From the NCBI GenBank assembly GCA_964016885.1, contig OZ024743.1:156674001-156738000 (forward strand): a DNA stretch of 64,000 bases. The letters are read 5' to 3'. The stretch is from Eledone cirrhosa. Taxonomy: Eukaryota. Within the stretch, counting starts at the first letter, position 1. Each line of letters begins with the position of its first letter. A model generated the notes under the pieces. The model saw nothing but the letters and a program-made list of their open reading frames with translations. It ran no database searches and was not told where the DNA came from. This document shows positions 4,514 to 60,025 of the stretch, piece after piece. The translations under genes were made by a program, and so were the position numbers.

Positions 4514-5026
4514 AATATTTTATATACAATCATACACACCCGTGTATATCTATATATCTATATATATATAAAATGTTTCTTCTCTCTTCATAATGTATTT
4601 TTAACTCTGATACTGGTTCAGTCTGGTTCAAACTGAATTGGTCTGTCCCAGTCATTCATTGAGCAACATCGGTGAAGTTGGCACCCTTAACTCACAGTTG
4701 GGTGCGGATGCATTCATGTATATATGTGTGTGTCCGCATGTATCTGTGTGTTTCTAAATATATTAATAACTCCCTCTGGTCGAGCAATCTTTGAGGTGTG
4801 GGGACAACTGGAAAGCTTCCATTACTCATACTTCTCGCCTTCTTCACTACCTCTTCTGCGGCCTCGATATGAATACCCCCTCCGCCTCCGTGGTATTTTC
4901 TTCGTGGTTATAAGAGGCTTAGCTCTGTTTCTCGACCGTTATATCGCGTGACTATCTCCCCCTCCGCCTTTTGGGATTCTTTCTCACGTCGTGTAGACGC
5001 GTTCTTGAGACTAGTAAAATGAGGTA

Positions 5027-5114
5027 TCCTCTTGATAAGTCGGCAGACCTCGCAAGGACTCTATATCTTTGATATATTGTTTTTGTTTATGCCACGAAAC
5101 TACGTAGTCGAGGA
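5027..5114 (+). ncRNA. Variant hammerhead ribozyme, family D copy 1 (U3-A8 core)
   Basis: TCCTC-TTGATAA-GT(C)GGCA[loop with two small hairpins]TGCCAC-GAAAC TACGTA GTC^GAGGA. Stem III palindrome ACTACGTAGT; predicted cut after C5109. Confidence 0.72.
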
Positions 5115-5617
5115 ATTTAGGAACAGTTTAGGTATGATACATTTTATTACTAATTATATCTAAATGTTTCTTCTCTCTTCATAATGTATTTTTAACTCTG
5201 ATACTGGTTCAGTCTGGTTCAAACTGAATTGGTCTGTCCCAGTCATTCATTGAGCAACATCGGTGAAGTTGGCACCCTTAACTCACAGTTGGGTGCGGAT
5301 GCATTCATGTATATATGTTTGTGTCCGCATGTATCTGTGTGTTTCTAAATATATTAATAACTCCCTCTGGTCGAGCAATCTTTGAGGTGTGGGGACAACT
5401 GGAAAGCTTCCATTACTCATACTTCTCGCCTTCTTCACTACCTCTTCTGCGGCCTCGATATGAATACCCCCTCCGCCTCCGTGGTATTTTCTTCGTGGTT
5501 ATAAGAGGCTTAGCTCTGTTTCTCGACCGTTATATCGCGTGACTATCTCCCCCTCCGCCTTTTGGGATTCTTTCTCACGTCGTGTAGACGCGTTCTTAAG
5601 ACTAGTAAAATGAGGTA

Positions 5618-5705
5618 TCCTCTTGATGAGTCGGCAGACCTCGCAAGGACTCTATATCTTTGATATATTGTTTTTGTTTATGCCACGAAACTACGTAGTC
5701 GAGGA
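5618..5705 (+). ncRNA. Variant hammerhead ribozyme, family D copy 2 (U3-G8 core)
   Basis: Same fold with core TTGATGA; predicted cut after C5700. Confidence 0.72.
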
Positions 5706-5774
5706 ATTTAGGAACAGTTTAGGTATGATACATTTTATTACTAATTATATCTAAATGTTTCTTCTCTCTTCATA

Positions 5775-5831
<57 letters not shown>

Positions 5832-6844
5832 ATATACGGATTAACAAATAATAGTTAAATGCAGTCCACTTAGGTGAAGTCCAGTTATGGTATTCCAGGT
5901 AGTGGATGATATTAACGCTTGGCTTGGTTTGACTCAACAAGGTGTTTTCATAGTGATGCTGCGGGTATGCTGTAATTCCTATGTTGTAAACACTTGGAGT
6001 AATAATAAATCACGAAAGAAGGTTTACATGGTTTGCAATACAAAAAAGTTTTTAATCACATAGCTTACATTTGTTTCACTGAACCTGTATGTCTAGAAAT
6101 CGCTATCCGCTTAATTTTGCGTTACTCGATCGCCAATACAGAATTATAACCAGTCAGATCTTCGGAGCATGCAAGAATGAAGAAAATACACAGGCAAGAA
6201 AAGAAAAAAAATACAGGCTACTATATGGAGTAGTAATGGCATTCAATTAGAACAATAACAACAATTACAACAATGCTATCAATAAATTATTTAAGGAGAC
6301 CCTGACATTACTTAGGTGGGAGGTATATAATGTATCTAATGTTACGGCGTGAAAACTAGCTGTCATAAGGCAAAATGAAGCGTTGACATGTACAGAGTAT
6401 CGTAGTGTGTATCAATTTTAAATTATAAAGATGAGCTAGTTTTTACAGTCTTTCTCTTCATCTTCAACAGTATACATGAGTGGGACCACTGTCAAAGCTA
6501 AATAGTTGTAGAGTTAATACAGAGGTTAACGAATTAATATACGCATATATCTACGCACACACACACACATACACATACACACATACACACATACACACAT
6601 ATATATATATATATAAATATATATACACATATATACACATGCATGCGTACATAGACACATACATACACATCAATATACACTCGTACAAAAATATACATAC
6701 ATGCAAAGAGAAAAGCGTGCTAATTGTAATTATGGCAAAAAGAAGGTAAAGTAACATTGTAGTAGTGAAATGAGAAAAACTAGGATCTAGGATCAAATGA
6801 TTGCAGCAGCTGAGAAGGAGTAAGATTTTAAGAAAAGATGATAT

Positions 6845-7126
6845 GTGCACAGGCACACAATGAAAAACCGTGCACTTATGGGTTCCACCACCCTCGCCAG
6901 AACAATATGGGAATTGAAGGACAGCAACACTAACTACAGTATCAACTGGTCAAACTTGTCGGCTGCTAAAACCTATAGTACAGGGATGTCCTATTGCGGG
7001 CTGTGTGATCTTGAGCTATTGTATATCCTTAGAAATGTTAAAAGGCTACTTAATAATAAGTTAGAAAGATCTATCTTCTGCAGACATAGAATAGTCACTA
7101 AATTCATAAGATTCAAACCTCCGTGA
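6845..7126 (+). pseudogene. C-terminal part of a PLE GIY-YIG endonuclease
   Basis: STTLARTIWELKD..YSINW..L..A..Y......CGLCDLE...I......N...E....CRHR is the typical PLE endonuclease tail. Truncated at its 5' end by the inverted arm. Confidence 0.85.
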
Positions 7127-7898
7127 ATCGAACCAACATAACATAGCTTTAAATTAGGATACCTAGTACCCACAGAAATATATTCATTAAGTATACTATA
7201 TCCTTCACAATTCTATACCACACAATTGTCTGTAAGTACCTCATCTACCAACAATCTTACTCCTTCTCAGCTGCTGCAATCATTTGATACTAGATCCTAG
7301 TTTTTCTCATTTCACTACTATAATGTTACTTTACCTTCTTTTTGCCATAATTACGATTAGCACGCTTTTCTCTTTGCATGTATGTATATTTTTGTACGAG
7401 TGTATATTGATGTGTATGTATGTGTCTATGTACGCATGCATGTGTATATATGTGTATATATATTTATATATATATATATGTGTGTGTGTGTGTATGTGTA
7501 TGTGTGTGTGTGTGCGTAGATATATGCGTATATTAAATCGTTAACCTCTGTATTAACTCTACAACTATTTAGCTTTGACAGTGGTCCCACTCATGTATAC
7601 GGTTGAAGATGAAGAGAAAGACTGTAAAAACTAGCTTACTTTATAATTTAAAATTGATACACACTACGATACTCTGTACATGTCAACGCTTCATTTTGCC
7701 TTATGACAGCTAGTTTCCACGCCGTAACATTAGATACATTATATACCCCCCACCTAAGTAATGTCAGGGTCTCCTTAAATAATTTATTGATAGCATTGTT
7801 GTAATTGTTGTTATTGTTCTAATTGAATGCCATTACTACTCCATATAGTAGCCTGTATGTTCTTTTCTTTTCTTGCCTGTGTATTTTCTTCATTCTCG

Positions 7899-40504: not shown

Positions 40505-41037
40505 CACCTGTGCAAAGTAAACAATCTACCACATTCTGAGAAATGGTATGAGCATAGGCCAGAGGCGGTGATGGAGAACAGTCAGGTGAAGGTGCTGTGG
40601 GATTTTAGGATACAGACGGACAAAAAACTGGAACACAATAGACCTGACCTGGTGGTTGTGGACAAAGAAAAAAGATCGTGCCTGATTGTGGATGTGGCCT
40701 GCCCGTTCGACACGAGAGTGCAAGAGAAGGAGAGGGAGAAAATTAACCGATACCAGCACCTAAAGTGGGAGGTGAAAAGGATTTGGAACTGCCATGAAGT
40801 CAAAGTGATCCCAATTGTAATAGGCGCACTGGGGACTATCTCCAAAGGTTTCCAGGGATGGTTAAAGAAAATCGGCCCCTTCACGCTTTTTGGAACGCTT
40901 CAAAAGGCATGCTTGCTTGGAACGGCAAGAACCCTCCGATACGTCCTGAATATCTGAGGCTGCAGGTAGTGGCTTGATATTCAATCCAACGGACTTTCCA
41001 GTTAACCAACATCAATGACTGAGATTCAAGGAATAAC

Positions 41038-41075
<38 letters not shown>
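40505..41075 (+). mobile_element. 5'-truncated R4/Dong-like LINE (second family), RLE domain plus (TAA)n tail
   Basis: ORF 40568-40957: LWDF.IQTD..LEHNRPDLVVVDK....IVDVACP.D....KE.EKI.RY..L...PIVIGALG. Confidence 0.9.
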
Positions 41076-41078
<3 letters not shown>

Positions 41079-41079
41079 T

Positions 41080-41574
<495 letters not shown>

Positions 41575-42584: not shown

Positions 42585-42654
42585 AATATATTTAAAACTG
42601 ATTTAAAACTGCACTATCCAAAAGTGTTTTTAACCTTCATATCATATCTTTCTA

Positions 42655-42722
42655 TTTTATCTGATGAAAACACAAATGTTATTGCATGATGATATTTGTG
42701 TTTTGAAATGCGCATAATAAAA
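42655..42722 (+). ncRNA. Type I hammerhead ribozyme, family H, in a solo ~170-bp pLTR fragment (42590-42760) between (AT)n tracts
   Basis: TTTTAT-CTGATGA-AAACACAAATGTTA..TGATATTTGTGTTT T-GAAA TGCGCA TA^ATAAAA. Palindromic stem III ATGCGCAT. Confidence 0.85.
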
Positions 42723-42756
42723 TACATGGAACTCTTTTAACCATGTTTTGATCTTA

Positions 42757-42844
<88 letters not shown>

Positions 42845-46642: not shown

Positions 46643-47495
46643 AGTATGTATGTATACGTATATATATATATATACATACATACAGGTACACATACATATA
46701 TGTACGTATCAGTTTAGCGGACGTGCCAGGTGCGCCTGGCCGACTGAACTCACTCGATATGCAAATTAGGCTGCTCAGCCGTTAATTTTCATAAGGAAAG
46801 TATATACTTTCGAACGTTCAACCATTTGGCAGAAGGTTATACGGTGCTGACGATAGCTAACAAGCTTGAAACTAGTACATCGTTCCTGTGTCAGTGTTGA
46901 ACAAAAAAGGTGACGTGGTTGCCTTAACACCGTACGGCATAAATTCAGGCTGTCAGTTTGTTTACAAACGGACAAAGCGGGCGTTATAATAAGCGTCCGC
47001 TAAACTGATACGTACATATATGTATGTGTACCTGTATGTATATATATATATATATATATATGCATGCTACTGTACGTCTGTATACATATATGTATGTACG
47101 TATACATACATATTTACATTTAAGTAAGTGCCGTATAAAAGAGTGAGAAATGAAATTTCGTTTTCATTTTATTACAACTTATCGTTTTCGGTGCGCCTGG
47201 CCGACTGGACTCACTCGATATGCAAATTAGGCTGCTCAGCCGTTAATATTCATGAGGAAAGTATATACTTTCGAACGTTCAACCATCTGGTAGAAGGGTA
47301 TACGGTGCTGATGATAGCTAACAAGCTTGAAACAAGTAGATCGTTCCTGTGTCAGTGTTGAACAAAAAAGGTGACGTGGTTGCCTTAACACCGTACGGCA
47401 TAAATTCAGGCTGTCAGTTTGTTTACAAACAGACACAGCGGGCGTTATAATAAGCGTCCGCTAAACTGATACGTACATATATGTATGTGTACCTG

Positions 47496-47551
<56 letters not shown>

Positions 47552-47981
47552 TGCTACTGTACGTCTTTATACATATATGTATGTACGTTTACATACATAC
47601 TTACATTTAAGTAAGTGCCGTAATAAGAGTGAGAAATGAAATTTCGTTTTCATTTTATTACAACTTATCGTTTTCGGTGCGCCTGGCCGACTGAACTCAC
47701 TCGATATGCAAATTAGGCTGCTCAGCCGTTAATTTTCATAAGGAAAGTATATACTTTCGAACGTTCAACCATTTTGCAGAAGGTTATACGGTGCTGATGA
47801 TAGCTAACAAGCTTGAAACTAGTACATCGTTCCTGTGTCAGTGTTGAACAAAAAAGGTGACGTGGTTGCCTTAACACCGTACGGCATAAATTCAGGCTGT
47901 CAGTTTGTTTACAAACGGACAAAGCGGGCGTTATAATAAGCGTCCGCTAAACTGATACGTACATATATGTATGTGTACCTG

Positions 47982-48044
<63 letters not shown>

Positions 48045-48473
48045 GCTACTGTACGTCGTTATACATATATGTATGTACGTATACATACATACTTACATTT
48101 ACGTAAGTGCCATACTAAGAGTGAGAAATGAAATTTCGTTTTCGTTTTATTACAACTTATCGTTTTCGGTGCGCCTGGCCGACTGAACTCACTTGATATG
48201 CAAATTAGGCTGCTTAGCCGTTAATTTTCATAAGGAAAGTATATACTTTCGAACGTTCAACCATCTGGCAGAAGGGTATACGGTGCTGATGATAGCTAAC
48301 CAGCTTGAGACAAGTACATCGTTCCTGTGTCAGTGTTGAACAAAAAAGGTGACTTGGTTGCCTTAACACCGTACGGCATAAATTGAGGCTGTCAGTCTGT
48401 TTACAAACGGACAAAGCGGGCGTTATAATAAGCGTCCGCTAAACTGATACGTACATATATGTATGTGTACCTG

Positions 48474-48537
<64 letters not shown>

Positions 48538-48651
48538 TGCTACTGTACGTCTGTATACATATATGTATGTACGTATACATACATACTTACATTTAAGTAA
48601 GTGCCGTACTAAGAGTGAGAAATGAAATTTCGTTTTCCTTTTATTTCAACT

Positions 48652-48652
<1 letters not shown>
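46640..48652 (+). repeat. Family B tandem array: ~4 units of 461-492 bp, one HHR and one internal (AT)n per unit, with a short inverted piece at the 5' end (46640-46722)
   Basis: HHRs at 46842-46882, 47303-47343, 47789-47829 and 48281-48321 (spacings 461, 486, 492; the repeated 66-aa minus ORFs show the same spacings). Length differences come from the (AT)n. Confidence 0.93.
46842..46882 (+). ncRNA. Minimal type I hammerhead ribozyme, family B (intact; 47789-47829 also intact)
   Basis: CGGTG-CTGACGA-T AGCT AACA AGCT T-GAAAC TA GTA^CATCG. Palindromic stem III ACTAGT. Confidence 0.85.
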
Positions 48653-48684
<32 letters not shown>

Positions 48685-50541: not shown

Positions 50542-52565
50542 GTAGGAGGTGAGTTTTATTGTAGTACAATAAAGCAATGCAGATATCGGATAAGAAGCAC
50601 TCTACAGTTTGTGAGACTGGAGTATGCATAATATAAGATCAAAAGATGGTTAAAGGAGTTCCATATATTTTATTATGCGCATTTCAAAAACAAACATCAT
50701 CAAGCAATAATATTTGTGTTTTCATCAGATAAAACAGGAGAACATGATATGAAGTCTAAAAAACACTTGTGGATAGTGCAGTTTTAAATCAACATATGAA
50801 AAGTGGTTTTAGATTGATGTGTGATATTGGGAAAAATATTTTATTTAGAGAGGGGGGGGGGGAAAGGATGAAAAGGGAAGGAGATGAGAGGGAGAGATGG
50901 GTGATAGAGAGAAAGAGATAGTTTTTATAACTGAGAGGAGATATATTTTTTACATAGAGGGGTTGAAAACCGTTGGAAGATACTGTATAAATTAAAAATT
51001 TTGAAAATTAACGAAGGGAGGATATGTGCGAGGAAAAAATATTTTATTTAGGGAGGGTGGGGTGGAAAGGATGAAAAAAAGGGGGAGGAGATGAGAGTGA
51101 AGGTGGAGAGGGAGAGATGGGTGATAGAGAGAAAGAGATAGTTTTTATAACTGAGAAAAAGATATATTGTTTTAATATAGAGAGGTTGGGAACCGTTGGA
51201 AGATAATGTATAAATTAAAGGAATTTGAAAATTAACGAAGGGAAATTATGTATGAAGATAGAGAGAAAAAAATAATAATTGTGGGTGAATATTCTAACGT
51301 CAAAAGAAGAAATGTATGTATTGTGGCAATTTCAAAATTAGCGAAGAGAAAAATTGTTAAGGTTTGTGTGTAGAAGGATTTGAGAAAAATAATGTGAAGT
51401 TAAAGTTTGTATATTGAATTGATAATATGTGCGAATAAAGAGTTGATATGTATTAATAATGAGTTCGTTGATGGGGAGAAAAAAAAGATAATAATAAATT
51501 AAGGATGAAATTGAGATTAAAAAGATTTATGATAGAGAGAAAAAATAATAATGATTGCGGATGAATATTCAAAATGTCAAAAACAAATGTTATTATTTTA
51601 CGAGAAGATAGAATGAGGGTAATGAGTAAACGAGTATTATAGAGTGTATAATGCCCTTTAAAAGTAAGGTAGATGGGTATATTTTAAAGAGGTGTATGTA
51701 TATGTGCCTTTTAGAAAAGATTCTAAATTGATAAAGAATTGAATATTAACTGTATACTTTGTGAAAAGTTCTATGGAATTTATGCAGGCAGATAGAAAAC
51801 AAATCTGAGCGTCTATTTATTATAGAATCTAGGTTAGAGATAATGGTAAATTTTTCACTTAGGCAGAGATTACAGATTGCCACAATACATACATTTCTTC
51901 TTTTGACGTTAGAATATTCACCCACAATTATTATTTTTTTCTCTCTATCTTCATACATAATTTCCCTTCGTTAATTTTCAAATTCCTTTAATTTATACAT
52001 TATCTTCCAACGGTTCCCAACCTCTCTATATTAAAACAATATATCTTTTTCTCAGTTATAAAAACTATCTCTTTCTCTCTATCACCCATCTCTCCCTCTC
52101 CACCTTCACTCTCATCTCCTCCCCCTTTTTTTCATCCTTTCCACCCCACCCTCCCTAAATAAAATATTTTTTCCTCGCACATATCCTCCCTTCGTTCATT
52201 TTCAAAATTTTTAATTTATACAGTATCTTCCAACGGTTTTCAACCCCTCTATGTAAAAAATATATCTCCTCTCAGTTATAAAAACTATCTCTTTCTCTCT
52301 ATCACCCATCTCTCCCTCTCATCTCCTTCCCTTTTCATCCTCCCCCCTCTCTCTAAATAAAATATTTTTCCCAATATCACACATCAATCTAAAACCACTT
52401 TTCATATGTTGATTTAAAACTGCACTATCCACAAGTGTTTTTTAGCCTTCATATCATGTTCTCCTGTTTTATCTGATGAAAACACAAATATTATTGCTTG
52501 ATGATGTTTGTTTTTGAAATGCGCATAATAAAATTTATGGAACTCCTTTAACCATCTTTTGATCT

Positions 52566-52573
<8 letters not shown>
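50540..52573 (-). mobile_element. 5'-truncated Penelope-like element, family H, with ~700-bp inverted arms (50628-51330 / 51876-52573)
   Basis: Minus 51746-51880 reads CNLCLSEKFTII.....INRRSDLFSICLH (GIY-YIG C-terminus). HHRs at 50668-50734 (-) and 52467-52533 (+). The arms are near-identical reverse complements. (AT)n on both sides. Confidence 0.88.
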
Positions 52574-52607
<34 letters not shown>

Positions 52608-57606: not shown

Positions 57607-57795
57607 TACGAATATGTAAACAAAATGGGTTTTTACAACAATGTACTCGGACATTTTCAATTAAAAAATTTCTCGGCGGGTTTGACGACTATGCTCTCTG
57701 TTGGTTACATCAATCTGGTTTCTTAGCATCAATCTTCAGAACATTTTTTTAATTTATTTGTTTAATTTTATTTTATTTATTTTTTTTTTTTTATG

Positions 57796-58183
57796 TGGAT
57801 TGGCAGTATCGGTAGAGGGTCGGACGCCATGCTTTGAAGCATAGAGTTACCTCCCTGTATGATCCGAGCTCAAATACCGCCGAGGTTAACTTTGCCTTTC
57901 ATCCTTACGGGGTCGATAAAATAAAGTACCAGTACTGCACTGGGTAATTGCTGGCCTTGTGCCAAAAAGTAGAAACAATTATTTTTATCCACCAGGGCGG
58001 TGGATTGGCAGTATCGGTAGAGGGTCGGACGCTATGCTTTGCAGCAAATATTTACGGCCCTTTATTGTCTGAGTTCAATCCCGCCGAGGTTAACTTTGCC
58101 TTTCACCCTTACGGGGTCGATAAAATAAAGTGCCAGTAATGTACTGGCTAATTGCTAGCCTTGTGATGAAAGTAGAAACAATT
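57796..58183 (+). mobile_element. Two tandem SINE copies (57796-57980, 57995-58183)
   Basis: Both carry the GGATTGGCAGTATCGGTAGAGGGTCGGACGC head, the central domain and the GTAGAAACAATT tail. Confidence 0.88.
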
Positions 58184-60025
58184 ATTTTTATTCGTCCCTA
58201 GTTATCTGGAGAACCCGGGTGGAGCGGTAGAAGAATTGATACAATTTAATCTCTCCTCTCTTATTATAAGCTTCTCTATAATTTAGTGACTACGTCAATG
58301 TTGCTTTTTTGATATATAATGTAGATAGATGCTCTGGAAACTAAGTAAAGCAATCTTAGTTTTTTTTTAATTCATTTAAACTAGATATGTAAGCACCGAG
58401 ATTAAACAACTCAACTGTTAGTCGATGCTGAGTTTTTATATCCATGAGAATTACAGGAACAGAAATGATTGGTCTCAAATATAGCATATATGCATGATAG
58501 CTGTGTTTGCATGTGTGTATACATGTGCTGGTGAGTAGCCAATAGAGTGTGTTATTTGTGTTTGTATACATTCGGACTTTGTGCTAATGTACATACAACA
58601 ATCACACATGTACACAGATATCAAATGTATACGCACATATTTTAGTAATCGAAGTTTTGAATTGTCCCCGCGGCAAACGATTCATCGAGGAATGTCACTG
58701 CAATCTATAGTGTTCTTGACAACATTTGGATTTAACGCACACACTTCTTACTAAATTAGTAAGGCCCAGCATTCGGACATGCACCCCAAAGCTTATGTAT
58801 GGGTAGAGCCAGATTTGAAGACACATTGGAAACAATTAACTTACTCGATAACTCAACCCTCAAGATATAGCAGTCAAGTCATCTATATAGAAGATTCTCT
58901 ATTGTTTTAATATTGGAAGTGCATATTGGATAACGTGATTCTAGATGTGTGGTACATACATCAAAAGCTTTCAATCATTTGATCATAGCTCTGCTCAATG
59001 AGAATTGGCCTGAAGTGAAATTGAAACACCAAAAGCCCAAACCACCATATATCTATTTGCCATACATATTTTAAAACGTACACATGTATACTTACATATA
59101 TCAAACGAAATTGTAAAATATCAGGCATATACATGGATATGAATTACATAAATACACACCTCAGCAACGAAAACCGCATAAATACGTGTTGCAAAATAAA
59201 CATTCACAGACAAACCTGTAGAGACAATTCAAACAAATCCTCTCATACGAACATAGACTAACGCTACACATTCACACAGACAAAATTAGATGCTGATATA
59301 CAATACAGACTTAAAATAAACAATATATAGATTCATAAAAATAGATACCCACAAAACTTCTAACACATGCACTCCTGATGTTCAATCAAACGAATAAAAA
59401 TAAATTTAGTAATTATTTTAAATTAAATTTCTCTGGGCCTCATTAATAATTGATTAAATATTTTCCACTTTAACATTTGTAGACAAACGTCTGTTTTTTA
59501 TTATGGAAGCTTTTTATACATTTTGTTTTTTATTGAAATTTATAGTAAATTAATACGTAGAAAAAACAAGCCAATAGGACAAATATAACATCGAAATATG
59601 TTTTCCATGTACAACAAATGTTAATGATATTTTCATATCTAAATATATTAAGTCTTATTATTTCGTTAGAAAAGGAAACAATAATAGTTTTAGAAGTCTG
59701 AAATTGCTCGTATATTTCGATTAATTGAAGTATAACAAACGAAAAATAGGGAAATGTTTAATTCCTCTGAAAGTGGCGTATTTTAAGTTATCCCAAACTA
59801 TTGATTTTAATAAGGAAATTAACGTTGAAAGACAATGCTTTTGTACCTTTATTAAAATTAGTTTCTCAACATTAATTTTGTCGATGAATATGTGGAGGAA
59901 AAGAGTCAACAATTCCGAAGAAATTCTTATTGATTGACTATGAAAAAATATTAAAAAAATTAAAGTACATTCAAAATACACAACTTCCCCAACGGTTTTA
60001 ATAATACGGTTGTTTATATATGTAT

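What the first reader, a model, noticed from the sequence alone, without database searches (positions are those of the whole stretch)
4571..5780. 591-bp tandem HHR element with a non-canonical core that toggles U3-A8 / U3-G8
Seen: two near-identical units differ at very few positions, and one is core position 8: TTGATAA (5032-5038) vs TTGATGA (5623-5629). Stem III is a perfect 10-nt palindrome and stem II carries a branched insert. Known: positions 3 and 8 form a tertiary Watson-Crick pair (normally C3-G8), and U3-A8 is a functional compensatory variant. Inferred: copy 1 has a proper U-A pair and copy 2 a U-G wobble, so either compensation or decay is captured within one array. Predicted monomer RNA is 5110-5700 (591 nt).
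Basis: partly seen in the sequence, partly recalled or inferred. Interest (0 to 1): 0.75.

Follow-up and report, generated by a model that had tools for sequence, protein, structure and literature searches.

The report
Penelope-type hammerhead repeat with U-A core
A 591-base non-coding repeat, scattered through this animal genome in thousands of short tandem arrays, carries a hammerhead-ribozyme motif whose usual C-G core pair is U-A in 99.6% of copies; it is likely a hitch-hiker of Penelope-like jumping genes, and the A/G difference between the two copies here is a private mutation of one copy, so this is a new member of a known kind.

Summary
The sequence facts hold. Window 4571-5780 is 2.04 tandem units of 591 bp that differ at 3 sites, one of them core position 8 (A at 5037, G at 5628).

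The "toggle" reading does not hold. Across the genome, 5,741 of 5,763 copies of the core context are U3-A8, 7 are U3-G8 and none is C3-G8. All three differences between the two units are private to copy 2, so G8 looks like ordinary decay.

The U3-A8 core is the family's real state. A subfamily only 79% identical keeps it. So does an unrelated hammerhead in the terminal repeats of an autonomous Penelope-like element (PLE) in the same genome (6,254 copies).

In the 24 loci sampled, the 591-bp family shows the PLE insertion signature:
- insertion into (TA)n tracts
- variable 5' truncation
- head-to-head inverted arms
- two fixed 3' ends, usually one of each per pair, as in the autonomous PLE

It is most likely a non-autonomous, PLE-mobilised retrozyme-type element whose hammerhead is predicted to act as a dimer. 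U3-A8 PLE hammerheads were published in 2014, so this is a new member of a known kind. Self-cleavage and circular RNA remain untested because no RNA data were available.

The parts
4571..5780 (+). Whole insertion: 2.04 tandem units of the 591-bp family, as a single arm with a short-type 3' end
   Evidence: Period-591 identity over 4571-5189 and 5162-5780. Same anatomy as L001.
4545..4570 (.). Imperfect (TA)n tract abutting the 5' end of the insertion (target microsatellite)
   Evidence: Sequence.
5778..5836 (.). (TA)n tract abutting the 3' end of the insertion. The last 3 nt of the element cannot be told from the tract.
   Evidence: TRF row 5778-5836. 33 of 35 visible 3' ends in other loci also run straight into (TA)n-rich sequence.
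4571..5109 (+). 5'-truncated first unit (unit positions 53-591, counting from the predicted cut site)
   Evidence: In 24 loci the 5' starts are spread over positions 1-536.
5110..5700 (+). Full unit between the two predicted cut sites (predicted 591-nt monomer RNA)
   Evidence: Motif positions. Folds at -174.3 kcal/mol, z = -5.26 against 100 shuffles.
5701..5780 (+). 3' terminal module after the second hammerhead, ending at the family's short 3' end (unit position 77-80)
   Evidence: 16 of 35 visible 3' ends lie at position 80. Loose ends into (TA)n at 5189 in run contigs.
5027..5114 (+). Hammerhead-like motif, copy 1 (U3-A8). Helix I is 5027-5031 with 5110-5114. Core is 5032-5038 (U3 at 5032, A8 at 5037). 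Helix II with its 57-nt hairpin is 5039-5095. G12-A14 is 5096-5098. Palindromic helix III is 5099-5108. C17 is 5109.
   Evidence: Descriptor hit. Constrained hammerhead fold is -21.5 against an MFE of -22.6 kcal/mol. Two copies co-fold into a double hammerhead at -58.9 kcal/mol.
5618..5705 (+). Hammerhead-like motif, copy 2 (U3-G8, G at 5628)
   Evidence: G8 is found in 7 of 5,763 copies genome-wide.
5319..5319 (+). Private substitution of copy 2 (T; other copies G in 66 of 67)
   Evidence: All four run contig sets read G here.
5598..5598 (+). Private substitution of copy 2 (A; other copies G in 72 of 72)
5628..5628 (+). Private substitution of copy 2 at core position 8 (G; other copies A in 88 of 88 sampled)

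Best explanation
Window 4571-5780 is one insertion of a high-copy, 591-bp non-coding repeat whose hammerhead-like motif has U3-A8 as its consensus core pair. The family is likely a non-autonomous retroelement of the animal retrozyme type, copied by the enzymes of Penelope-like elements (PLEs), and the G8 of copy 2 is a private point mutation.

Shown:
- The family has thousands of dispersed short arrays at (TA)n tracts.
- The core is U3-A8 in 99.6% of copies and C3-G8 in none.
- The same core is kept in a 79%-identical subfamily.
- An autonomous RT plus GIY-YIG PLE in the same genome carries an unrelated U3-A8 hammerhead in its terminal repeats.
- Both families have the same insertion architecture: variable 5' truncation, head-to-head arms, and one short plus one long 3' end per pair.

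Inferred:
- Array transcripts would be cut after C17 by two hammerheads pairing through the 10-nt palindrome (a double hammerhead).
- The 591-nt monomers would be religated into circles by a tRNA ligase, as shown for other animal retrozymes.
- A PLE reverse transcriptase/endonuclease would copy the uncut or circular RNA from nicks in (TA)n, starting at two preferred sites about 80 and 245 nt past the cut site. This would give arrays longer than one unit at the moment of insertion.
For: Copy number and dispersal:
- 161 matches at 98-100% identity among the 40 scored of 890 candidates, on many contigs.
- 5,763 exact hits to the 29-nt core context with positions 3 and 8 left free.

Positions 3 and 8:
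- U3 with non-A8: 12 copies (G 7, T 4, C 1).
- Non-U3: 10 copies, all with A8.
- Hence U3-A8 in 5,741 of 5,763, and C3-G8 in 0.
- Copy 2's three differences are private: other copies read G 66/67, G 72/72 and A 88/88.

Conservation:
- In the 79% subfamily the unconditioned 3' half of the motif is 27/28 identical, against 413/521 for the rest of the unit and 27/42 for distal helix II.

Covariation across families:
- With all 16 combinations at positions 3/8 allowed over 320 kb, only C-G (4 families) and U-A (3 families) rise above shuffle level.

Autonomous PLE:
[quoted passage not shown] Atlas neighbours are animal HTH_animal/DUF8422/GIY-YIG/RVT_1 clusters.
- The ORF is flanked by two identical U3-A8 hammerheads 4,979 nt apart, inside repeats 98.6% alike.
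- That motif has 6,254 genomic hits, and the first 100 listed are all U3-A8.
- GIY-YIG: 10,596 candidates, and 150 of 150 scored pass the cut-off.

Architecture of the 591 family in 24 loci:
- 35 visible 3' ends: 16 at unit position 80, 17 at 245-250, 2 at 64 or 69.
- 37 5' starts spread over positions 1-536.
- 14 of 24 loci have an inverted second arm.
- 11 of 12 complete pairs have one short and one long end.

Same rule in the PLE: 8 of 8 head-to-head pairs have one short end (about 82 nt past the cut) and one long end (about 146 nt), both in (TA)n. These hallmarks are the ones described for PLEs in the passages read from PMC8557442.

Folding: two motif copies co-fold into a double hammerhead with a 10-bp intermolecular helix III, at -58.9 against 2 x -22.6 kcal/mol.

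Literature (passages read): natural U3-A8 PLE hammerheads and their dimer mode in PMC4209133; retrozyme circles and RtcB ligation in PMC7229834; retrozymes as PLE derivatives in vertebrates in bioRxiv 10.64898/2026.07.22.740005 (abstract and passages).
Against: - No Rfam hammerhead model scores the motif at any threshold tried. The same models also miss a canonical-core motif in this window and the PLE's own motif.
- Cleavage, circles and expression are untested here.
- PLE minimal hammerheads cleaved poorly in vitro (PMC4209133).
- Apart from the kind of hammerhead and the end motifs, the unit shows no nucleotide or protein similarity to the PLE copies examined: 30 GIY-YIG loci and 5 long-ORF loci. 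The partner is therefore inferred from architecture alone.
- The conservation test rests on one diverged subfamily (about p = 0.01).
- The 24 loci were the best-scoring matches, and the 8 PLE pairs were picked because they were close inverted pairs, so neither is a random sample.
- At 591 nt the unit is longer than the 150-450 bp given for animal retrozymes.
Confidence: 0.75

Rival explanations
1. The motif is hammerhead-shaped but not catalytic in this family. It would be conserved for another reason, for example as a fold the PLE reverse transcriptase recognises near the 3' end, and the element would spread from uncut transcripts.
For: Nearly all arms keep the predicted cut site intact inside the DNA copy, as expected if the template RNA was not cut. 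PLE minimal hammerheads had low activity in vitro, and the most successful PLE clade lacks canonical hammerheads (PMC4209133; PMC8557442). Rfam models do not score the motif.
Against: The catalytic-core letters and the 3-8 pair are kept where flanking sequence diverges. Across families only the Watson-Crick combinations C-G and U-A are enriched, which is the pattern expected for the tertiary pair of an active core. Religated circles would also keep the cut site intact.
Confidence: 0.15
2. The 591-bp unit is the terminal repeat (pseudo-LTR) of an autonomous PLE that was not sampled, and the arrays are solo or tandem terminal repeats left by 5' truncation.
For: PLE insertions are mostly 5'-truncated and leave terminal repeats carrying the hammerhead. 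The autonomous PLE of L062 leaves thousands of such short head-to-head stubs.
Against: In the first 100 places listed, same-strand neighbours within 10 kb are 590-607 bp apart, apart from one 1,959-bp gap between two separate insertions. None shows the 2-7 kb spacing of repeats flanking an ORF. Arms reach about 6 consecutive units. No similarity to the unit was found in 35 PLE loci other than one inserted copy. The only ORF in the unit is 75 aa.
Confidence: 0.07
3. One reading: the array captures a functional switch or compensation between U3-A8 and U3-G8 cores.
For: The two units do differ at position 8. A U-G wobble could in principle still pair.
Against: G8 is present in 7 of 5,763 copies, never in two units of one array. 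Position 8 is not a hot spot. All three differences in this array are private to copy 2. No subfamily with G8 was seen.
Confidence: 0.02
4. The G at 5628 is an assembly or base-call error.
For: It could not be excluded. The site lies in a 99%-identical repeat and only collapsed contigs of public runs were available.
Against: Copy 2 carries two further private changes, as expected for a slightly aged copy. Six other loci carry the same change independently. The question has no bearing on the family's biology.
Confidence: 0.05

Closest known systems
Hammerhead variants of Penelope-like elements, including the U3-A8 core variant of Schistosoma mansoni Cercyon PLEs (Cervera & de la Pena 2014, PMC4209133; passages read)
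   Same: Type I topology. Short helix I (5 bp here; 4-5 bp there). Long helix II with an unpaired nucleotide near its 5' end. Small palindromic helix III that implies dimer action. U3-A8 in place of C3-G8. Thousands of genomic copies. Pairs on opposite strands.
   Different: Here the motif sits in a 591-bp ORF-less unit repeated in tandem, not in the terminal repeat of an ORF-bearing PLE. Helix II carries a 57-nt hairpin. Helix III is a full 10-nt palindrome rather than absent or 2-6 nt.
Animal non-LTR retrozymes (Cervera & de la Pena 2020, PMC7229834; Li, Clavereau & Pollet 2026 preprint 10.64898/2026.07.22.740005; abstracts and passages read)
   Same: Dispersed tandem repeats with a type I hammerhead in every unit. 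Low GC (42%). No LTR or coding capacity. A highly self-paired predicted RNA (z = -5.26). Co-resident autonomous PLEs. Proposed PLE dependence.
   Different: The unit is 591 bp against the 150-450 bp reported. The core is U3-A8, whereas the passages I read describe retrozyme hammerheads as canonical. Circular RNA was not shown here. Arrays here are short (mostly 1-3 units in the sampled loci) and carry PLE-type ends, which the passages I read do not describe for retrozymes.
Autonomous PLE of the same genome (L062/L063 type)
   Same: U3-A8 core. Palindromic helix III. 4-5 bp helix I. Hammerhead about 80 nt before the short 3' end. A second, longer 3' end. One short and one long end per head-to-head pair. 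(TA)n target. Long ends share the motif TTTCTAA followed by a TA run.
   Different: It encodes RT plus GIY-YIG. Its helix II is compact (4 bp plus a 5-nt loop). Its long end lies about 146 nt past the cut site against 245 nt. There is no alignable sequence similarity.
Rfam hammerhead families (type I/III and variants)
   Same: Core letters U4 G5 A6 N7 A9, G12 A13 A14, A15.1-U16.1 and C17, and the three-helix layout.
   Different: No score at any threshold. The U3-A8 pair, the 57-nt helix II and the loop-less helix III lie outside what these models describe.

Membership tests
Hammerhead ribozyme (type I) | Conserved core C3 U4 G5 A6 N7 G8 A9 / G12 A13 A14 / A15.1-U16.1 / H17 | tested here: inconclusive
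   All core letters are present except the 3-8 pair, which is U-A in copy 1 and U-G in copy 2. U-A keeps the Watson-Crick pair and is a published natural variant.
Hammerhead ribozyme (type I) | Three helices around the core, with helix I open | tested here: met
   Helix I has 5 bp. Helix II has 6 bp with one bulged C, plus a long hairpin. Helix III has 3 bp with a 4-nt loop as a monomer, or 10 bp between two copies.
Hammerhead ribozyme (type I) | Match to a curated covariance model (Rfam) at gathering score | tested here: not met
   No hammerhead hit at gathering, at E<=10 over 1.5 kb or over 126 nt. The same models also miss a canonical-core motif and the PLE's motif.
Hammerhead ribozyme (type I) | Site-specific self-cleavage 3' of position 17 | not testable with these tools
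   No RNA run was listed, and contigs cannot show RNA ends.
Hammerhead ribozyme (type I) | Core and helices kept or compensated in diverged relatives | tested here: met
   In the 79% subfamily the 3' half is 27/28 identical against 413/521 elsewhere. Helix II changes are G-U to A-U. Among families only C-G and U-A at positions 3/8 are enriched. This rests on one subfamily and on a descriptor that demands pairing.
PLE-type hammerhead (Cervera & de la Pena 2014) | Short helix I, enlarged helix II with an unpaired nucleotide near its 5' end, absent or small palindromic helix III | tested here: met
   compared with the passages.
PLE-type hammerhead (Cervera & de la Pena 2014) | Location in the terminal repeats of an RT/GIY-YIG element | tested here: not met
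   No ORF-bearing element with this unit was found. The co-resident PLE's own hammerhead does meet this feature.
Animal non-LTR retrozyme | Tandem repeats with a type I hammerhead in every unit, low GC, no LTR/PBS/PPT, no coding capacity | tested here: met
   The motif is in both units here and in every unit of the arrays aligned. GC is 42%. The only ORF is 75 aa. PBS and PPT were not searched for.
Animal non-LTR retrozyme | Unit size of about 150-450 bp | tested here: not met
   The unit is 591 bp, with subfamilies of 590-607 bp.
Animal non-LTR retrozyme | Expressed as linear and circular monomer RNA | not testable with these tools
   No RNA holder was listed.
PLE-mediated insertion (Craig et al. 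2021) | 5' truncation, partial tandems, adjacent inverted 5'-truncated copy, an extension (tail) at one end only, microsatellite target | tested here: met
   for 24 loci of the 591 family, for the autonomous PLE, with the description. The 'tail' here is 165 nt against the 30-40 bp described.

The most novel reading that the evidence does not exclude
The arrays are born at integration, not by later local amplification. A PLE enzyme nicks both strands of a (TA)n tract. It then primes reverse transcription at two fixed sites of a ribozyme-processed, religated 591-nt RNA circle, the short site on one strand and the long site on the other. It runs round the circle up to about six times, and the two cDNAs meet head to head. 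The same footprint in the co-resident autonomous PLE would mean that PLE pseudo-LTRs themselves are rolling-circle products. That would give the long-puzzling PLE hammerhead a job: making the circular template.
Probability: 0.3. Interest if true: 0.6.

Novelty: new member of a known kind. Interest (0 to 1): 0.35.

Why it matters
This family gives a clean natural data set on the hammerhead's 3-8 tertiary pair. Two unrelated high-copy families in one genome (about 5,700 and 6,300 copies) use U-A, other families use C-G, and no family uses a mismatch.

It also ties a retrozyme-type repeat to PLE machinery by insertion architecture rather than by sequence similarity. Both families obey the same rule of one short and one long 3' end per head-to-head insertion. 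That rule is a concrete, testable constraint on the still unknown PLE integration mechanism.

For annotation, thousands of such motifs are invisible to the Rfam hammerhead models.

Tried and rejected
- **RNA evidence.** The look-up of sequencing runs listed no RNA holder. Six runs of unknown kind hold the unit under three organism labels.
- **Contigs of four runs.** X1 and X6 each give a 620-621-nt self-overlapping contig, which a tandem array or a circle would both produce. No variant of 5% or more was listed at 5032 or 5037. Loose ends run into (TA)n at 5189 and 5354. None of this can show RNA ends or confirm the single base at 5628.
- **Rfam.** No hammerhead hit in five searches. I treat this as a limit of the models, because a canonical-core motif is missed too.
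- **Partner by sequence similarity.** blastn of the unit against 30 GIY-YIG loci gave only low-complexity hits and one inserted copy. blastn and tblastn against five long-ORF PLE loci gave nothing significant.
- **Hammerheads near GIY-YIG hits.** The descriptor found almost none within 1.5 kb of the 30 GIY-YIG hits. They appeared only in the 10-kb loci.
- **Branched helix II.** Rejected.
- **Coding role.** Only a 75-aa ORF per unit. Not pursued.
- **Earlier findings of this scan.** Nothing for this genome or this sequence. Two notes from other genomes on PLE-type hammerheads were not used as evidence.
- **Biochemistry of U3-A8.** The primary papers (PMC1986816, PMC2151028) are not held. That C3-G8 is a Watson-Crick pair confirmed by two studies comes from passages of PMC3884650. 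That U3-A8 retains activity in engineered ribozymes is my recollection only.
- **Literature searches.** 'hammerhead' + 'U3-A8' found 1 paper. 'hammerhead' + 'C3-G8' found 2. 'C3U'/'G8A' found nothing useful.
- **Supplements.** Those of PMC4209133 and of the 2026 preprint were not seen. They may show whether a U3-A8 variant was assayed, or whether similar families are already catalogued.

Full report
**The observation**

Window 4571-5189 is repeated at 5162-5780 with a period of 591 bp. The two full units differ at three sites: 4728G/5319T, 5007G/5598A and 5037A/5628G. The array is flanked on both sides by (TA)n.

Each unit holds a type I hammerhead-like motif. For copy 1 the parts are:
- helix I: 5027-5031 paired with 5110-5114
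- core: 5032-5038
- helix II: 5039-5095
- GAA: 5096-5098
- palindrome ACTACGTAGT: 5099-5108
- C17: 5109

This predicts cuts at 5109/5110 and 5700/5701 and a 591-nt monomer.

A descriptor of my own allowed C-G, U-A or U-G at positions 3/8 and one bulge in helix II. It found 7 motifs in the window against 0-1 in each of 20 block-shuffled windows. The minus strand of this region gave none.

One detail fails. The 57-nt helix II insert folds as a single interrupted hairpin, not a branch. A diverged subfamily breaks the small hairpin that a branch needs, but keeps the long one through G-U to A-U changes.

No Rfam hammerhead model scores the motif at any threshold. The same models also miss a canonical-core motif at 42661 and the hammerhead of an autonomous PLE. 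I therefore read this as a limit of the models.

**Positions 3 and 8 across the genome**

The window lies in a 3.0-Gb assembly. The 29-nt context around the core, with positions 3 and 8 left free, has 5,763 exact hits and none in the reversed-pattern control.

| Core state | Copies |
|---|---|
| U3 with non-A8 | 12 (G 7, T 4, C 1) |
| Non-U3, all with A8 | 10 (C 4, G 4, A 2) |
| U3-A8 | 5,741 (99.6%) |
| C3-G8 | 0 |

The seven G8 copies lie at seven separate loci, and none is adjacent to another.

Position 8 is not a hot spot:
- Allowing one mismatch anywhere raises the count from 5,741 to 7,342. That is 1,601 single-mismatch copies over 29 sites, or about 55 per site.
- Two neighbouring non-core sites together carry 44 variants.
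- Positions 3 and 8 together carry 22.

At all three sites where the window's units differ, other copies carry copy 1's base: G 66/67, G 72/72 and A 88/88. Copy 2 is simply a slightly decayed copy, and nothing toggles. An assembly error at 5628 cannot be excluded, because only collapsed contigs of public runs were available.

**Is U3-A8 meaningful?**

Three lines of evidence say yes.

- *A diverged subfamily keeps it.* A subfamily 79% identical to the window unit (L015, minus strand) keeps helix I, the core with U3 and A8, the base of helix II, GAA, helix III and C17. The 3' half of the motif, which my search did not condition on, is 27/28 identical. The rest of the unit is 413/521 identical and distal helix II is 27/42. 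This is one subfamily, so the weight is modest (about p = 0.01).
[quoted passage not shown] The ORF is flanked by two identical compact hammerheads 4,979 nt apart, inside repeats 98.6% alike. That motif also has U3-A8. It has 6,254 genomic hits, and the first 100 listed are all U3-A8.
- *Only Watson-Crick combinations are enriched.* I allowed all 16 base combinations at 3/8 over the 320 kb of sequence held at that point, a sample biased toward these families. Only C-G (4 families) and U-A (3 families) stood out. The other combinations gave single hits at the level of shuffles.

This is the pattern expected for the Watson-Crick tertiary pair between positions 3 and 8 (PMC3884650, passages).

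It is not new. Cervera and de la Pena (2014) reported a U3-A8 covariation in PLE hammerheads of Schistosoma mansoni, with about 1,300 hits (PMC4209133, passages).

**What the element is**

The unit is dispersed on many contigs at 98-100% identity. In the first 62.7 Mb of contig C1 there are about 60 loci.

I mapped the arms in 24 distinct loci taken from the 30 best matches. Unit position 1 is the base after the predicted cut.

| Feature | Result |
|---|---|
| Arms mapped | 38 |
| Visible 3' ends | 35: 16 at position 80, 17 at 245-250, 2 at 64 or 69 |
| What the 3' ends abut | (TA)n-rich sequence in 33 of 35 |
| 5' starts | 37, spread over positions 1-536 |
| Loci with a second, inverted arm joined head to head | 14 of 24, often with 1-16 nt of overlap |
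| Complete pairs with one short and one long end | 11 of 12 |
| Arm length | 0.04 to about 6 units |

Most arms cross the predicted cut site at least once.

These are the hallmarks described for PLE insertions: 5' truncation, partial tandems, an adjacent inverted 5'-truncated copy, a tail at one end only, and a microsatellite target, (TA)n for some clades (PMC8557442, passages).

PLEs are abundant in this genome. GIY-YIG gave 10,596 first-look candidates, and 150 of 150 scored pass the Pfam cut-off.

I then looked at eight close inverted pairs of the autonomous PLE's hammerhead, chosen from the listing. All 8 have one arm ending about 82 nt past the cut site and the other about 146 nt past it, both in (TA)n.

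The 591 family's short end lies 77-80 nt past its cut site. The long ends of the two families share TTTCTAA followed by a TA run. Otherwise there is no alignable similarity between the unit and the PLE copies examined.

No ORF-bearing element with this unit turned up. Same-strand neighbours within 10 kb are 590-607 bp apart in the first 100 places, with one 1,959-bp exception between two separate insertions. The unit's only ORF is 75 aa.

I therefore file the family as a non-autonomous, retrozyme-type element that is likely mobilised by PLE enzymes. The L062-type PLE is the best candidate partner. The partnership is an inference from architecture.

**How it probably works**

The predicted 591-nt monomer is strongly structured (-174.3 kcal/mol, z = -5.26).

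As a monomer, the hammerhead fold of a 100-nt segment costs only 1.1 kcal/mol over the MFE, but its helix III has just 3 bp. Two segments co-fold at -58.9 kcal/mol, against 2 x -22.6, into a double hammerhead with a 10-bp intermolecular helix III and unpaired cores. This is the dimer mode proposed for PLE and amphibian retrozyme hammerheads.

By analogy with animal retrozymes, cut monomers would be circularised by an RtcB-type ligase (PMC7229834, passages).

The DNA copies span the cut site and often exceed one unit. The template was therefore either uncut or religated RNA. Rolling reverse transcription on a circle, primed from both nicked strands of a (TA)n tract, would explain the arrays, the fixed 3' ends and the head-to-head arms.

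None of these RNA steps could be tested. No RNA run was listed.

Two things remain unexplained. Initiation uses just two sites, although other TA runs in the unit are not used. And each pair takes one site of each kind.

**Comparison and verdict**

The closest known things are the PLE hammerheads with the U3-A8 variant (2014) and the animal non-LTR retrozymes (2020). A 2026 preprint on vertebrates derives the latter from PLE terminal repeats.

The family differs from published retrozymes in three ways:
- unit size: 591 bp against 150-450 bp
- the U-A core
- a large helix II hairpin

The passages I read of the preprint propose local amplification of arrays and do not describe insertion architecture. 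The short/long end rule shared with an autonomous PLE may therefore be an addition, but I saw neither the whole text nor the supplements.

Overall this is a new member of a known kind. The headline "toggle" is ordinary decay.

Noticed in passing
window 42592-42757 (+), 52400-52566 (+), 50545-50800 (-): A second hammerhead-bearing repeat family, with a canonical C3-G8 core, an 8-bp helix I, a long helix II and the palindromic helix III ATGCGCAT. It is inserted in (TA)n. Two copies end about 47 nt past the cut site and one carries a further ~88-nt tail, the same short/long dichotomy. Rfam does not score it.
   Followed up: partly
window 50623-51330 and 51876-52578: The copies at 50728(-) and 52473(+) are the outer ends of a head-to-head inverted pair. 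The arms are about 700 nt long, 94-99% complementary and 545 nt apart, with one long and one short 3' end.
   Followed up: partly
window 60191 (-), 1934 (-), 42216 (+): Further descriptor hits with C3-G8 cores and palindromic helix III (ATATATAT, ACATATGT, ATATGTAT). They are AT-rich, so some may be chance.
   Followed up: no
L062 (G000:C1:145867300-145877299), minus strand: A tandem autonomous PLE: a 938-aa RT plus GIY-YIG ORF between two U3-A8 hammerheads 4,979 nt apart. A third U3-A8 motif, with a 12-nt palindromic helix III, lies on the plus strand near position 700.
   Followed up: partly
L075-L082 (contig C1): The autonomous PLE's hammerhead very often occurs as inverted pairs only 70-150 bp apart. 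These are extreme 5'-truncated head-to-head stubs, and each has one short and one long end in (TA)n.
   Followed up: yes
L083 (G000:C1:2952000-2955100): A head-to-head array of the 591 family lies about 300 bp from a stub pair of the autonomous PLE, with a (TA)n tract between them, as if the same microsatellite was hit twice.
   Followed up: no
G000:C5:39920683 and 39921280: Two adjacent units of one array both carry U at core position 8. This is the only non-A8 state seen shared within an array, so it was either inherited from the template or copied locally.
   Followed up: no
window 40649-41512, 47035-48654, 57795-58191: Other long-period tandem repeats: 432 bp x 2.0, 492 bp x 3.3 (which embeds (TA)n), and 204 bp x 1.9. 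My descriptor found no hammerhead motif in them.
   Followed up: no
window 4724-4951 and 5315-5542: A 75-aa ATG ORF in each unit. Not compared with the subfamily or with any library.
   Followed up: no
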